Of a DNA stretch of 64,000 bases, positions 27,599 to 57,567 are shown piece by piece. The notes under the pieces were generated by a model, which worked only from the letters and a program-made list of their open reading frames with translations, ran no database searches and had not been told where the DNA came from. The translations under genes were made by a program, and so were the position numbers. The stretch's first letter is position 1; each line of letters begins with the position of its first letter. The stretch comes from Thermoplasmata archaeon (GTDB lineage Archaea > Thermoplasmatota > Thermoplasmata > Halarchaeoplasmatales > Halarchaeoplasmataceae): positions 6,954 through 70,953 of the forward strand of contig JBKHFH010000003.1 in NCBI GenBank assembly GCA_046540335.1. Reading direction: 5' to 3'.

Positions 27599-28936
27599 AT
27601 GGCAGACAAAGAACAGGAACCATTCGGTATCAAGAGCGTTCTATCGGACCTAAAGATAGTATTAGAGTACAAAGAGCTTTTGATATTGGTCTTCGCGGTC
27701 TTCGTGAGTATGATAGGTTTCGGCCTTATCATGCCTTTCTTACCTATCTATGCAAGACAGTTCGGAGCTACAAAGACTCACGTAGGTTTGATGCTCGGTA
27801 TCTTCTCAATAGTGAAGATCATCATCGCTCCTATCGGGGGGAAAATCGCTGACGTCTATGGGAGAAAACCTGTGATGGTCGGCGGGATGTTCATGTATAT
27901 GGTGGTCATGGGGATGTTCGGTCTAGCTAGTACACTGCCAGAACTTTTTATATATAGAGCTAGCCAGGGAGCAGCCTCAGCTCTCGTTTGGCCGATAGCC
28001 ATGACTTATATCGGGGATGTGGTAAAAGAAAAAGATAGAGGCAAAGCCATGGGTCTATATTCGATGTCCTTCGCCACTGGTAACGCTTTCGGACCTTTGA
28101 TAGGAGGTCTCATCGCTACCTATTATTCTCTTTCTGTGCCGTTCTTCTTCACATCCGGATTAGCAGCGTTAAGTGGGGTTCTTTTGTTATTTGGTGTCAA
28201 GGAATCCTATGAAAGCTCTAAAGCTAGAGGTGACGAGAAAGAAGAATCCATTTCAATATCCGGTCTCAAACAGAAAAAGAGGAAGTACTCGATAAACATA
28301 TTCAAATGGGTATGGAATTACATAAAGAAGATAACTCCTTTCCCGAAGATATTCCTGGGGCTGACAGTCGGATCTTTCACTATCTTTTTTGGATTAGCGA
28401 TGGTTTGGTCGATGTTATCCATATTTGGAGACGAAATCCTAGGACTCAATGAATTTCATATATCTCTAGTTTTCACCCTTATAGGTGTAGTACAGGTCCT
28501 AGTGATGTTCCCCGCAGGTAGTTTATCCGACAGAATAGGAAGGAAAAAACTGATACTGGCGGGAGCAATCTTTTCTGCAATTTTCTCGGGAGTTATAGGC
28601 CTTTCGAACAGCTTCCTCTTCTTGATGGGGGCGGTGGGCATGTACACCGTAGGAAGAGCATTAGCAAGGCCCTCATTTCCGGCTTTTGTGTCTTCTCTCT
28701 CACCTATGAAACATCGAGGGAAGATGATGGGTGTTTACAACTTCGCTCAGAACGCCGCTTTCTTTCTAGGTTCCGCCCTGGGAGGCGGGATAGCTGATCT
28801 TTTGAATCTTAGGTGGCCTTTTTTCGGCGCGATGATAATCGGTCTCTTAGGTGTAGCTTTTATCTATTTCACGGTGAAAGACCCAGATAAAAAGGATTTG
28901 AAAGAATTGGACGATCAGGACAAACTTAACCATTAA
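27599..28936 (+). CDS. Major facilitator superfamily transporter
   Basis: 12 TM; MFS motif-A-like GKIADVYGRKP and DRIGRKK between TM2/3 and TM8/9; start set at the internal MADKEQE. Confidence 0.8.
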   Translation: MADKEQEPFGIKSVLSDLKIVLEYKELLILVFAVFVSMIGFGLIMPFLPIYARQFGATKTHVGLMLGIFSIVKIIIAPIGGKIADVYGRKPVMVGGMFMYMVVMGMFGLASTLPELFIYRASQGAASALVWPIAMTYIGDVVKEKDRGKAMGLYSMSFATGNAFGPLIGGLIATYYSLSVPFFFTSGLAALSGVLLLFGVKESYESSKARGDEKEESISISGLKQKKRKYSINIFKWVWNYIKKITPFPKIFLGLTVGSFTIFFGLAMVWSMLSIFGDEILGLNEFHISLVFTLIGVVQVLVMFPAGSLSDRIGRKKLILAGAIFSAIFSGVIGLSNSFLFLMGAVGMYTVGRALARPSFPAFVSSLSPMKHRGKMMGVYNFAQNAAFFLGSALGGGIADLLNLRWPFFGAMIIGLLGVAFIYFTVKDPDKKDLKELDDQDKLNH

Positions 28937-29360
28937 ACTTTCTCGCTCTCTCTTTTAGAATAGTATTTTATACCCGATTCTTCAAATTCGAGATATTCAA
29001 AGAAATCCATAGCCTCCGGATTATCTGGCTCTATCAAGGTCGCCCAGATCTTAAAGCCTTTTTCTTCGAACTTTCGCTCTAATTCCTCGACTAGGGCTCT
29101 TCCTATATCCCGACCTCTGTAGTCTTCATCTACTGCTAATCGATTGATCCACCCTTTTCTTCCATCGTCGGTCCCGAAGACTATGCCGACCAACTTTTCA
29201 TCTTCGTAGGCGCCTACCCAGTATTCAGGCTGTTCGTCGATCTCTCTCTCTCTATGCTCTCTCTTGTATCTCTTCCTTCCGGTTTGTAAGGAAGGCCACC
29301 TTCATCCCAGAGTTCTAAAATCCTTTCGTACTCTTCTATACTGGGTGTTCTGAGTTTCAT
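28933..29360 (-). pseudogene. GNAT-family N-acetyltransferase interrupted by a frameshift within a (TC)6 dinucleotide repeat
   Basis: N-terminal frame MKLRTPSIEEYERILELWDEGGLPYKPEGRDTRESIERE and C-terminal frame IDEQPEYWVGAYEDEKLVGIVFG...RGRDIGRALVEELE (GNAT motif A) are out of phase. Deleting one TC unit from the (TC)6 tract at 29241-29252 gives a continuous 137-aa GNAT. Confidence 0.6.
29241..29252. repeat. (TC)6 dinucleotide microsatellite inside the GNAT coding sequence
   Basis: tctctctctctc seen directly; it is the site of the frame change. Confidence 0.8.
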
Positions 29361-29414
29361 AGAGCAGTAAATCTAGAGATATTTTATATATCCTTCGTCT
29401 CTGTTTCAACGACC

Positions 29415-30649: not shown

Positions 30650-31273
30650 TCAACCTTTCCGGAGATGCGTAACATCTCCCGAGACGAACTTTTCACCGCT
30701 CTCTAGCACGAGTCTCCCTCTCTCATCTATATCTTCTACCGTGCCTTCAATTTGCCCATTCTGTGTTCTTATCTTGACCCGTTCTCCGATGGTTGAAGAA
30801 TAATTTTTGTAGGTGTTCAACAGATCCTCTATCCCATAAAAATTGGAGATGATATCTTTCATCAGTTTATCTAAAGAGTATTCGTTTCTGTTAATATCAT
30901 AGATGCATATACTATCGGATAAAGGAGCGGATTCAACATTGAGACCTATACCTACGATACCTCTTTCATACGCGATCTCTGTCAATATACCACATATCTT
31001 TCTCTCTTCTACCAAAACATCATTAGGCCATTTGAGTTCTGGCTCCATACACAATTTCTCCAATGTCTTTGCGACTGCGACCGAAGCTTTCAGAGGTAAA
31101 AGATCTTCTTTTTCAGTACATAAAGAAAAATAGAGGTTTCCGGGAGGTGATTCCCATGAACGATCTTTTCTTCCTTTTCCATCGGTCTGTCTTTCCGCTA
31201 GAACTACGAAATCATCGGTTTCTTCATCCAATAACTCCTTGGCTACCTCGTTGGTCGAACCCGCCTTTTCCAA
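30650..31273 (-). CDS. birA: Biotin--protein ligase (BirA catalytic domain, no DNA-binding domain)
   Basis: AERQTDGKGRKDRSWESPPGNLYFSL matches the BirA Q.aGRGR.GR.W.Sp.G.Ly.S biotin-binding loop. Confidence 0.85.
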   Translation of the reverse strand: MEKAGSTNEVAKELLDEETDDFVVLAERQTDGKGRKDRSWESPPGNLYFSLCTEKEDLLPLKASVAVAKTLEKLCMEPELKWPNDVLVEERKICGILTEIAYERGIVGIGLNVESAPLSDSICIYDINRNEYSLDKLMKDIISNFYGIEDLLNTYKNYSSTIGERVKIRTQNGQIEGTVEDIDERGRLVLESGEKFVSGDVTHLRKG

Positions 31274-31297
31274 TCTGTATACCTTTATGAGATCCCC

Positions 31298-31627
31298 TCA
31301 CATGAAGGTCGGAGGTGAACTTACGGTTACATAGGAGGCCTTTTCGCCTCCCACGTTTTCAGCGTGATGAGATACGTCAGATGGATGCCATAGAGTATCA
31401 CCTTCTTTCAACCTATGGACTTGATCACCTACAAAATAATCGATCTCTCCTTTCAAAACGAGATGGATCTCTTCACCTCTGTGACAGTACTCTTCAGATT
31501 CAGCACCGACTTCCAGTTCCGCGATTATTGCCTCCATCTCACTTGATTTCTGCATCAGCCGAAATATTTTTCCATCGACTTCCTCCCTCTCTTTTTCTTC
31601 TCCTTTTCTTACCAATTCACATTCCAT
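31298..31627 (-). CDS. Cupin-domain protein
   Basis: HRGEEIHLVLKGE...GDTLWHPSDVSHHAEN carries the two-motif cupin signature. Confidence 0.7.
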   Translation of the reverse strand: MECELVRKGEEKEREEVDGKIFRLMQKSSEMEAIIAELEVGAESEEYCHRGEEIHLVLKGEIDYFVGDQVHRLKEGDTLWHPSDVSHHAENVGGEKASYVTVSSPPTFM

Positions 31628-55803: not shown

Positions 55804-56190
55804 CTATAGATATTCTTTTTCATAATAGATAGGCCTGGTTCGACCTTTTTCGCCTTTTTTTGCTTCATTAGGTAGCTCTTCCTTTTTGGTCCAAGGCCAA
55901 ATTCTCGAGATATGATCGATTCGGACATACACTTCTTCCAGATTCACCTCGGTCCAAGTGGCAAATCCTGCCCTTTTATCTTTCTTGTCAGCACCTCTTT
56001 GCATTTCCGCTGGTGATATCTCCTTCCAATCTATATCCTTAAATTTGGACTGTAAAACCTTTTTCAGGACTAAAATGTTCCTATCGTACTCTTTAAGTTC
56101 TCCAACAAATCCAAGGCCATCGTCCATCATCACCAAAATATCCTCATTTTTTAAACCGCTGAGTTTTTTCTCCAATAATTCAACCGACAT
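55804..56190 (-). CDS. Sm-like-fold protein, paralogue C
   Basis: LLEKKLSGLKNEDILVMMDDGLGFVGELKEYDRNILVLKKVLQ ... GFATWTEVNLEEVYVRIDHISRIWPW plus a basic tail. Confidence 0.6.
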   Translation of the reverse strand: MSVELLEKKLSGLKNEDILVMMDDGLGFVGELKEYDRNILVLKKVLQSKFKDIDWKEISPAEMQRGADKKDKRAGFATWTEVNLEEVYVRIDHISRIWPWTKKEELPNEAKKGEKGRTRPIYYEKEYL

Positions 56191-56233: not shown

Positions 56234-56244
56234 GGGGGGGGGGG
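56234..56244. repeat. G11 homopolymer tract (C11 on the coding strand of the flanking genes)
   Basis: tttggggggggggaccc seen directly; lies 44 bp upstream of the paralogue C start, in a 42% GC genome. Confidence 0.8.
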
Positions 56245-56370: not shown

Positions 56371-57567
56371 CTAACTTAACGGAGTCTTTTTAGATTTTTC
56401 AGCCAGCTCTCTCGCTTTCAGGGCGTGATCTTCAGCTCTCTGAAGTTTTCCATCTTTGAGATATGATAAACTTATCTCTTTGTTTGTTATTGACTTTATC
56501 TCTTCGTTTTCCATGAAACCCAGATATTCATGAACTCTTTCGTACTCTCCTTTCTCTAGCAGATTCTTTATTAGTTCTTTATAAATTTGGTCCCTCTCCC
56601 ATCTGTCTTCTATAGTTTCGACCAACTTCAAAGCTTGATCAACTAAAGCCTTGTGGATAAGATCAGTTGCTATAATTCTAATCAAAGTATCTCTGATGTC
56701 ATCACTTTCGATGTCTCCAACTATTTTCAGTGCATTTTCCCATAATCCTTCATCTGATAGCGCTATACCTAATTCCATCAAATAGATGTCGCCTGCTCCA
56801 CTTTGATTTATCTCCTCGATTAGGGTTTTAGCTTTTTCAGTTTCCCCGAGTCTTAAAAAAGTCTTTCCAATGATACATTTTATCCATTTCTCATCCTCTC
56901 TAGTATTAAAATCACTTGTCAGTGCAAGTGCATATCGGCATAGTTCTTCGACCTCGTCATCACCCATTCTGGCTTTCATCTCCGCTACTAAAGTTAAAGG
57001 TACTATGTTTTTCCCATCTTTAGACAGATTTAAAGCGGGTCGGAGAGCCCGTTCTAGATTCTTTTTTGCCCTCTCAACAAGTCCAAGATCAAGCTGCTCT
57101 TCAGCCACAGAGATGAAAATATCGACTAACTTTTGATCGTCTTTTATTTTCTCAGCCTCCTTTAACCCATATCCAAAGATTTCCTGATATTTACTTTCGA
57201 ATTCATGCTTTAAAAATGTAGACGCCAATCGAGATAATGTCTTTACTTTTTCAGATGTTACTTTCACCTGAAAGGCGGAATCTAGAGCTTCATCGCCAAA
57301 TTTCTTCGCTAGATAGATCAGATCGTTCTCCAAAAATACATCGATAACCTCGTTAATCACTAGAGCTCTGCTGTTGGATGAAGGAAGTGAGTTCAATGTA
57401 TCTATACTTTTCTGGAGAGTAGTTGCGGTTAGTGAATTTCCACCTTCTCTTCTCATCTCATCGATGATCTCGCCTAAAGTTTTAGGGTCATCATTGAGTA
57501 TTTCAAAACGCCGTCCCATGGTCAATCTTTTACTATATGAAAGGTAATTAATGTCAGTTTCTATCAC
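56371..57567 (-). CDS. All-alpha helical-repeat (TPR/HEAT-like) hypothetical protein
   Basis: 398 aa of repeated amphipathic helix pairs; no catalytic motifs. Confidence 0.5.
   Translation of the reverse strand: MIETDINYLSYSKRLTMGRRFEILNDDPKTLGEIIDEMRREGGNSLTATTLQKSIDTLNSLPSSNSRALVINEVIDVFLENDLIYLAKKFGDEALDSAFQVKVTSEKVKTLSRLASTFLKHEFESKYQEIFGYGLKEAEKIKDDQKLVDIFISVAEEQLDLGLVERAKKNLERALRPALNLSKDGKNIVPLTLVAEMKARMGDDEVEELCRYALALTSDFNTREDEKWIKCIIGKTFLRLGETEKAKTLIEEINQSGAGDIYLMELGIALSDEGLWENALKIVGDIESDDIRDTLIRIIATDLIHKALVDQALKLVETIEDRWERDQIYKELIKNLLEKGEYERVHEYLGFMENEEIKSITNKEISLSYLKDGKLQRAEDHALKARELAEKSKKTPLS

What the first reader, a model, noticed from the sequence alone, without database searches (positions are those of the whole stretch)
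28933..29360. GNAT acetyltransferase frameshifted exactly at a (TC)6 dinucleotide repeat: candidate slipped-strand switch
Removing one TC unit from the tract at 29241-29252 fuses MKLRTPSIEEYERILELWDE... to ...IDEQPEYWVGAYEDEKLVGIVFG...RGRDIGRALVEEL into a canonical 137-aa GNAT. Simple-sequence tracts inside coding regions are the classic substrate for reversible on/off phase variation. Such switches are rarely described in archaea.
Basis: seen in the sequence. Interest (0 to 1): 0.6.

Follow-up and report, generated by a model that had tools for sequence, protein, structure and literature searches.

The report
Frameshifted acetyltransferase allele at short repeat
A small acetyltransferase gene of an uncultured salt-lake archaeon is broken by one extra copy of a two-base repeat; a sister strain carries the intact gene, so this is a real but ordinary loss-of-function variant and not a demonstrated genetic switch.

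Summary
On the minus strand, 28933-29360 encodes a GNAT acetyltransferase whose frame breaks inside the 13-nt tract A(GA)6, which is (TC)6T on the plus strand at 29241-29253. Deleting one unit gives an intact 141-aa protein, not 137 aa.

The frameshift is probably not an assembly error. The (AG)6 allele recurs in two other NCBI MAGs and in a Logan assembly of SRR19844286. The exact intact 141-aa protein, with (AG)5, occurs in Logan assemblies of SRR21542051 and SRR21542052.

Tract state follows lineage. The intact haplotype differs from the window by 33 SNPs over 12.7 kb. No assembled sample holds both alleles. No other tract length was found in about 15 billion proteins.

Seventeen orthologue loci from other Thermoplasmatota species lack the repeat. 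It is simply the codons ATA-GAG-AGA-GAG-ATC (I-E-R-E-I), and its length is near chance expectation. The two other indels seen between the haplotypes also sit in simple repeats.

Best reading: a slipped-strand gain of one repeat unit produced a null allele that segregates between strains. It could revert in principle, but nothing shows it is an evolved on/off switch. This is a known kind of event and of low interest.

The parts
28933..29360 (-). GNAT (YpeA/RimI-like) acetyltransferase gene, present here as the frameshifted (AG)6 allele. The intact allele would be 426 nt and 141 aa.
   Evidence: The identical intact protein P0122 is found in L001 and L002.
29241..29253 (-). Coding-strand tract A(GA)6, which is (TC)6T on the plus strand. 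It is the site of the +2 nt (one-unit) insertion relative to the in-frame (AG)5A allele. In the intact allele the tract is the codons ATA GAG AGA GAG ATC (I-E-R-E-I).
29214..29360 (-). N-terminal fragment ORF of 48 aa (P0121). The first 39 residues are authentic GNAT sequence, followed by 9 out-of-frame residues and a stop.
28933..29241 (-). C-terminal remainder of the GNAT in frame +2. NCBI annotates it as a 102-aa protein (P0051) from a non-canonical ATC start. The first conventional start, TTG at 29193, gives 86 aa (P0123). This part holds the acetyl-CoA motif R-D-I-G-R-A.
29361..29414 (-). Short divergent intergenic region shared with the Amidohydro_3 gene. It contains an AT-rich TATATAAAAT element about 20-30 nt upstream of the GNAT ATG, which I infer to be an archaeal TATA box. 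The haplotype SNP at 29378 lies between this element and the ATG.
   Evidence: Sequence; SNP. The promoter role is inferred, not tested.

Best explanation
This is a real, naturally occurring null allele of a conserved small GNAT acetyltransferase in one strain lineage of an uncultured haloalkaliphilic Thermoplasmata archaeon. The ancestral in-frame gene carries an 11-nt AG tract that arose by ordinary codon choice for Ile-Glu-Arg-Glu-Ile (ATA GAG AGA GAG ATC) in a Glu-rich proteome that prefers AGA for Arg. Replication slippage added one AG unit. The reading frame then shifts after codon 39, translation stops 9 codons later, and the acetyl-CoA-binding two-thirds of the enzyme is not made. The allele is stably inherited in its lineage, while a sister lineage about 0.3% diverged keeps the intact gene. 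The mutation could revert by the same slippage. However, the locus does not show the features of an evolved contingency (phase-variation) locus. Shown here: the frameshift, its position in the repeat, both alleles in public data, the link between allele and lineage, and the absence of the repeat in orthologues. Inferred: slippage as the mechanism, loss of function, and a low switching rate.
For: 1. Both alleles exist. (AG)6A is in the window, L003/L006 (Logan SRR19844286, a contig seen in 2 samples), L004 (GCA_046539565.1) and L005 (GCA_046538555.1). (AG)5A is in L001 (SRR21542052) and L002 (SRR21542051), with identical flanks. The (AG)5 product is residue-for-residue the predicted fusion.
2. 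The in-frame (AG)5 register is ancestral. All orthologues are 141-143 aa with the same spacing between GRD and QPEY, and YpeA aligns across the junction.
3. Allele follows lineage. L003 and L004 are 100% identical to the window over 11.8 and 7.4 kb. L001 and L002 share 31 SNPs against it. The 2-nt tract difference is the only indel in 12.7 kb.
4. The repeat is not conserved. The 17 orthologue loci have at most GAGAGAGA at that site.
5. The tract is near chance level. For (TC)6, 0.07 are expected per 64 kb and 6 of 100 shuffles contain one. The probability of this tract given IEREI and local codon usage is 3.6%. The window's ORFs contain 11 ERE motifs in about 18,000 codons, Glu makes up 10.5% of residues, and AGA makes up 54% of Arg codons.
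6. The other two indels found between the same haplotypes also lie in simple repeats: A5/A6 at 56386-56390 and C11/CCGC6 at 56234-56244. This marks SSR slippage as the general indel source here rather than something special to this gene.
7. The gene is otherwise conserved and syntenic, with GNAT convergent to an MFS gene followed by NUDIX, across species. The window is 89% coding with no other obviously broken gene. This points to a recent isolated lesion rather than genome decay.
8. SSR-associated indel polymorphism in coding regions among strains is widespread in prokaryotes, including an archaeon (PMC3315296).
Against: The gene carries no other lesion or SNP in the broken lineage. That is what a reversible switch would also show, although at this level of divergence only about 0.4-1.3 SNPs would be expected in 428 bp. 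Read-level heterogeneity could not be examined, and assemblers report only the majority allele. A low-frequency mixed population in each sample is therefore not excluded. Only two lineages are available, so homoplasy could not really be tested. The hap A assemblies may derive from overlapping read sets, which makes them fewer independent observations than they appear.
Confidence: 0.8

Rival explanations
1. It is a genuine phase-variable (contingency) locus. The AG tract slips at high frequency in both directions, switching the GNAT on and off within populations as bet-hedging.
For: The frameshift lies exactly in the longest dinucleotide repeat of the window. Two tract lengths differing by one unit exist among strains that are 99.7% identical. 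There is no secondary decay of the broken copy. Coding dinucleotide repeats of comparable type drive on/off switching in Helicobacter pylori SabA (abstract of PMC2715451, listed; the repeat details are from my own knowledge).
Against: Tract state is perfectly tied to haplotype. No sample's assembly contains both alleles. No other tract length exists in the public collection. The repeat is absent from 17 orthologue loci. The tract is short and near chance level. The gene class is atypical, since known loci mostly encode surface structures or R-M systems (PMC11868660). Dimeric SSRs of this length have low variability compared with homopolymers (PMC3315296).
Confidence: 0.1
2. It is a sequencing or assembly artefact. 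The true tract is (AG)5 and the gene is intact in this organism.
For: Simple repeats are error-prone for some platforms. The hap A assemblies are 100% identical and may come from the same or sibling read sets. Hap A also carries a second truncating indel in a homopolymer.
Against: The same (AG)6 is recovered by different pipelines, namely three NCBI MAGs and the Logan k-mer assembly, and in at least two runs. Contig sizes and exact identity between pipelines fit accurate short reads, which do not give majority-level errors at a 12-nt dinucleotide repeat or an A5 run (my own knowledge). The MAG L029 differs from the window by 7 SNPs elsewhere, so the assemblies are not mere copies of each other.
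Confidence: 0.04
3. Recoding rescues the (AG)6 allele. Ribosomes shifting by +2/-1, or RNA polymerase slipping on the AG repeat, would produce full-length GNAT.
For: The required shift is -1 (equivalent to +2). In a dinucleotide repeat, a tRNA reading GAG or AGA can re-pair perfectly two bases away. The -1 frame is open from about codon 19, so a shift anywhere in the tract would work.
Against: There is no X XXY YYZ slippery heptamer (sequence). There is no downstream stimulatory structure: the 113 nt from the tract onward fold worse than shuffles (z +1.32). The tract and the shifted arrangement are absent from all orthologues, so there is no conserved recoding signal. An in-frame allele exists in the sister strain.
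Confidence: 0.03
4. It is a functional split enzyme. The 48-aa N-terminal piece and the 86/102-aa C-terminal piece are both made and assemble into an active GNAT.
For: NCBI annotates both pieces as proteins in three MAGs. The C-terminal piece keeps the acetyl-CoA motif.
Against: The C-terminal piece has no conventional start at the break. There is only an ATC, or a TTG 16 codons further in that would remove part of the core sheet. The N-terminal piece ends in 9 out-of-frame residues. No orthologue is split.
Confidence: 0.02

Closest known systems
SSR-associated frameshift polymorphism in prokaryotic coding regions (Lin & Kussell 2012, PMC3315296)
   Same: An indel of one repeat unit lies inside a short coding microsatellite, differs between closely related strains of one species and causes a frameshift. 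That survey included an archaeon (Sulfolobus islandicus) and found indels at 0.1-7% of coding SSR loci.
   Different: Nothing essential differs. This is one more case, in an uncultured Thermoplasmata lineage, seen through metagenome assemblies rather than isolate genomes.
Dinucleotide-repeat phase variation of Helicobacter pylori outer-membrane protein genes (for example SabA, PMC2715451)
   Same: A two-base repeat in the 5' third of a coding sequence sets the reading frame by its unit number. Strains differ in on/off status.
   Different: In H. pylori the repeat is conserved across strains, takes many lengths, varies within populations and controls a surface adhesin (abstract of PMC2715451, listed; other details are from my own knowledge). 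Here the repeat is species-specific, only two lengths are seen, each is tied to a lineage, and the product is a cytoplasmic-type GNAT.
YpeA-type small GNAT N-acetyltransferases (PDB 2pdo, 4qus; NCBIfam NF002959)
   Same: The size is the same (141 vs 144 aa). The alignment is end to end (residues 2-136, E 3e-11) and includes the R-x-x-G-x-A acetyl-CoA motif.
   Different: The NCBIfam score (80 bits) is below the equivalog cut-off (124 bits), so this is a relative and not a YpeA orthologue. Its substrate was not identified here.

Membership tests
GNAT acetyltransferase superfamily (Pfam PF00583) | Domain match above the curated threshold over most of the domain | tested here: met
   The repaired 141-aa protein scores 65.7 bits against a cut-off of 20.7, covering profile positions 16-114 of 116.
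GNAT acetyltransferase superfamily (Pfam PF00583) | Acetyl-CoA binding motif A, (Q/R)-x-x-G-x-(G/A) | tested here: met
   R-D-I-G-R-A lies in ...YRGRDIGRALVEEL... It aligns to RGRGIANAL of YpeA and sits in the out-of-frame C-terminal part of the window allele.
GNAT acetyltransferase superfamily (Pfam PF00583) | Uninterrupted reading frame giving the complete fold | tested here: not met
   The window allele stops after 48 codons. It is met only in the (AG)5 allele of L001 and L002.
SSR contingency locus (slipped-strand phase variation) | A repeat tract whose unit number sets the reading frame (or promoter spacing) of the gene | tested here: met
   (AG)5 is in frame; (AG)6 shifts the frame by +2 nt.
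SSR contingency locus (slipped-strand phase variation) | Tract length polymorphic among closely related strains | tested here: met
   Assemblies that are 99.6-100% identical carry 5 or 6 units. Only two states are seen.
SSR contingency locus (slipped-strand phase variation) | High-frequency reversible switching, meaning mixed tract lengths within one population or clone | not testable with these tools
   This needs raw reads or a culture. At contig level no sample yields both alleles, and products of 2, 3, 4, 7, 8 or 9 units are absent from the collection.
SSR contingency locus (slipped-strand phase variation) | Tract state independent of strain phylogeny (recurrent switching) | tested here: not met
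   All (AG)6 copies belong to haplotype A and both (AG)5 copies to haplotype B, which has 31 shared SNPs. Only two lineages are available, so the test is weak.
SSR contingency locus (slipped-strand phase variation) | Repeat maintained by selection, meaning conserved in relatives or longer than composition predicts | tested here: not met
   The repeat is absent from 17 orthologue loci. 6 of 100 shuffles give a (TC)6. The probability from codon usage is 3.6% per IEREI motif.
Programmed -1 ribosomal frameshift site | Slippery heptamer X XXY YYZ followed by a stable downstream structure | tested here: not met
   There is no such heptamer in A GAG AGA GAG AGA UCG. The downstream fold has z +1.32, and 187 of 200 shuffles fold at least as well.

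The most novel reading that the evidence does not exclude
The AG tract is a working slipped-strand on/off switch for a cytoplasmic acetyltransferase in a free-living haloalkaliphilic archaeon, and the C11 promoter-proximal tract and the A5/A6 tract in the same window are further switches. That would make this lineage an archaeon with multiple SSR contingency loci. A recent review of phase variation still treats mapping such loci across archaea as future work (PMC11868660).
Probability: 0.08. Interest if true: 0.6.

Novelty: new member of a known kind. Interest (0 to 1): 0.2.

Why it matters
As it stands, the main value is for annotation and population genetics. The two ORFs annotated in three MAGs (48 aa hypothetical plus 102 aa GNAT) are one gene broken by a one-unit repeat gain, and the intact allele exists in a sister strain. 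It also shows that all three indels seen between two co-specific archaeal haplotypes lie in simple repeats. Read-level data showing within-sample mixing would make it one of very few candidate SSR phase-variable genes in archaea, but current evidence points away from that.

Tried and rejected
1. I scanned JGI metagenome contigs for the exact flanks with a variable-length gap. There were 0 hits, so this gave no extra tract-length data.
2. I scanned GTDB species representatives with the repaired protein. The window's own species was absent and only orthologues at 78% identity or less were returned. They were used to show the repeat is not conserved.
3. I looked up the neighbouring NUDIX and Amidohydro_3 proteins to find more samples spanning the gene. 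One new sample (SRR29060559) appeared, but its 1.5-kb contig stops short of the GNAT.
4. I made exact look-ups of the products expected for 2, 3, 4, 7, 8 and 9 repeat units. None exists in the collection.
5. An apparent split of the neighbouring Amidohydro_1 gene in MAG contig L026 (52 + 420 aa) looked like a second frameshift. The DNA is 100% identical to the window, and Logan's gene calls give one 448-aa gene, so it is a gene-calling difference only.
6. I considered a recoding signal. There is no slippery heptamer and no downstream structure.
7. A literature search for the run and assembly accessions found nothing, so sample origin and sequencing platform remain unknown.
8. tRNA and Rfam scans of the window found nothing.

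Full report
**Observation**

The gene lies on the minus strand of 28933-29360. The coding strand reads ...GAG AGC ATA GAG AGA GAG AGA TCG ACG..., a 13-nt alternating tract A(GA)6. On the plus strand this is (TC)6 at 29241-29252 plus T at 29253.

- Frame 0 gives a 48-aa ORF (29214-29360). The rest of the protein is open in frame +2 down to 28933.
- Removing one repeat unit produces a single ORF of 141 aa.
- The repaired protein matches Pfam Acetyltransf_1 (E 5.7e-18).
- It aligns end to end across the junction to the solved GNAT YpeA (2pdo, E 3e-11).
- It scores below the cut-off for the NCBIfam GNAT equivalog NF002959 (80 vs 124 bits).
- It carries the acetyl-CoA motif R-D-I-G-R-A in the part that is out of frame in the window.

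**Artefact or real**

These include Ca. Natronoplasma, Ca. Saliniplasma and T1Sed10.

The search also found one 90%-identity cluster holding four products of this same gene:

| Product | Length | Sources |
|---|---|---|
| P0121, N-terminal piece | 48 aa | three NCBI MAGs plus Logan |
| P0051, C-terminal piece | 102 aa | three NCBI MAGs |
| P0123, C-terminal piece | 86 aa | Logan |
| P0122, intact | 141 aa | two Logan assemblies |

P0122 is residue-for-residue the predicted fusion.

Fetching the DNA gave these tract states, with identical flanks:

- (AG)6A: the window, L003/L006 (SRR19844286, a contig seen in two samples), L004 (GCA_046539565.1) and L005 (GCA_046538555.1).
- (AG)5A: L001 (SRR21542052) and L002 (SRR21542051).

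The broken allele is therefore reproduced by different assembly pipelines and runs, and the intact allele exists in nature. An assembly error is unlikely. I could not see reads or platform metadata, and a literature search for the accessions found nothing.

**Switch or lineage marker**

- L003 and L004 are 100% identical to the window over 11.8 and 7.4 kb. L005 differs at 3 positions.
- L001 and L002 differ from the window at 33 and 32 positions, 31 of them shared.
- The 2-nt tract difference is the only indel in 12.7 kb.
- No SNP lies inside the GNAT coding sequence. One lies 18 nt upstream of the ATG, at 29378.

Tract state thus coincides with two strain lineages about 0.3% apart, and one mutation on one branch explains everything.

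- No sample's assembly yielded both alleles.
- Exact look-ups of the products expected for 2, 3, 4, 7, 8 and 9 units found none among about 15 billion proteins.
- A variable-gap scan of JGI metagenome contigs found no further copies.
- Look-ups through neighbouring genes added no sample that spans the gene.

**Origin of the tract**

In 17 orthologue loci from other species (66-84% amino-acid identity), the same position encodes I-x-x-E-L/I with varied codons. The longest AG run there is 8 nt. All orthologues share the (AG)5 register, so the in-frame allele is ancestral and (AG)6 is a derived gain of one unit.

The 11-nt ancestral tract is simply ATA GAG AGA GAG ATC.

- In the window's ORFs, Glu is 10.5% of residues, AGA is 54% of Arg codons and GAG is 37% of Glu codons.
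- ERE occurs 11 times in about 18,000 codons.
- The chance that IEREI is spelled as this tract is 3.6%.
- A (TC)6 is expected 0.07 times per window and appears in 6 of 100 shuffles.

The repeat therefore needs no selective explanation.

**Context**

- The window is 89% coding with no other obviously broken gene.
- An apparent split of a neighbouring amidohydrolase in one MAG is only a gene-calling difference on identical DNA.
- The GNAT is convergent with an MFS transporter gene, with stop codons overlapping. It is divergent from an Amidohydro_3 gene.
- GNAT-MFS-NUDIX synteny is conserved across species. The gene is therefore normally maintained, and the lesion is recent.

While following a G11 run, I found that the only other indels between the two haplotypes also sit in simple repeats:

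- C11 versus CCGCCCCCC next to a TATA-like element at 56234-56244.
- A5 versus A6 at 56386-56390, which truncates the 398-aa ORF in the window haplotype by 35 codons.

All three indels seen in the roughly 15 kb compared are repeat-associated. This matches the general picture of SSR-driven indel polymorphism in prokaryotic coding regions, an archaeon included (PMC3315296).

**Alternatives**

- Recoding is unsupported. There is no X XXY YYZ heptamer. The 113 nt from the tract onward fold worse than shuffled sequence (z +1.32). No orthologue shares the arrangement.
- A functional split enzyme is unlikely. The C-terminal piece lacks a conventional start at the break, and the N-terminal piece ends in out-of-frame residues.
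- True phase variation cannot be excluded without reads, because assemblies show only majority alleles.

Every feature I could test goes against a dedicated switch:

- The repeat is not conserved in relatives.
- Its length is not beyond chance.
- Only two lengths are seen.
- Tract state is not independent of phylogeny.
- The gene class is atypical. Known loci mostly encode surface structures or R-M systems (PMC11868660).

**Verdict**

The slipped-strand origin is well supported, and the "switch" is not. The best reading, at about 0.8 confidence, is a strain-level loss-of-function allele created by a one-unit gain in a chance coding microsatellite.

It is a new instance of a known kind of event and of low general interest. 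It is useful mainly for correcting the annotation: the two ORFs are one frameshifted gene. The residual novel reading is an archaeal lineage with several SSR contingency loci. I give it about 8%, and it is directly testable by counting tract lengths in the reads of the five named runs.

Noticed in passing
window 56234-56244 (C11 on the minus strand): This is the longest homopolymer in the window (G11; 0 of 100 shuffles produce one). It lies immediately 5' of a TATA-like AAAATAATTAATTA, 44 nt upstream of the ATG of the 128-aa ORF 55804-56190(-). The sister haplotype (L030 GCA_048620615.1, L031, L032) has CCGCCCCCC there, which is 2 nt shorter and interrupted. One Logan contig (L034, SRR19844287) begins exactly at the tract. 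It is a better a priori candidate for length-dependent promoter modulation than the (TC)6 tract.
   Followed up: partly
window 56386-56390 (A5 on the minus strand), inside ORF 56371-57567(-): This is a second frameshift polymorphism between the same two haplotypes. The window has A5 and the 398-aa TPR-like ORF ends ...KSKKTPLS*. Haplotype B has A6 and reads on for 35 more plausible codons (...KSKKDSVKLEILEVVIAIEGKEPALSLVKDMDTLEEKAIGFGIIAAESF*). The window's lineage thus carries two SSR-associated truncations within 64 kb.
   Followed up: partly
window 31049-31529: There is a cluster of 20 SNPs in 480 bp between the two haplotypes, covering the 5' part of the biotin-protein ligase gene and upstream. 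The flanks have about 1 SNP per kb. The Logan contig L003 ends exactly at 31048, which suggests a strain-variable or recombined segment that breaks assemblies.
   Followed up: no
L005 1-267 (GCA_046538555.1 contig JBKHIR010000150.1), joining at window about 30381: The first 267 nt of this MAG contig do not match the window. They encode an OmpH-like fragment, and the Amidohydro_3 gene is cut to 324 aa, with 3 SNPs just inside the join. This is probably a chimeric contig end or a rearrangement.
   Followed up: no
window 28933-28936: The GNAT gene (minus strand) and the MFS transporter gene (plus strand) converge and overlap by 4 nt at their stop codons. The same convergent arrangement is seen in orthologous loci of other species (L021-L023).
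   Followed up: partly
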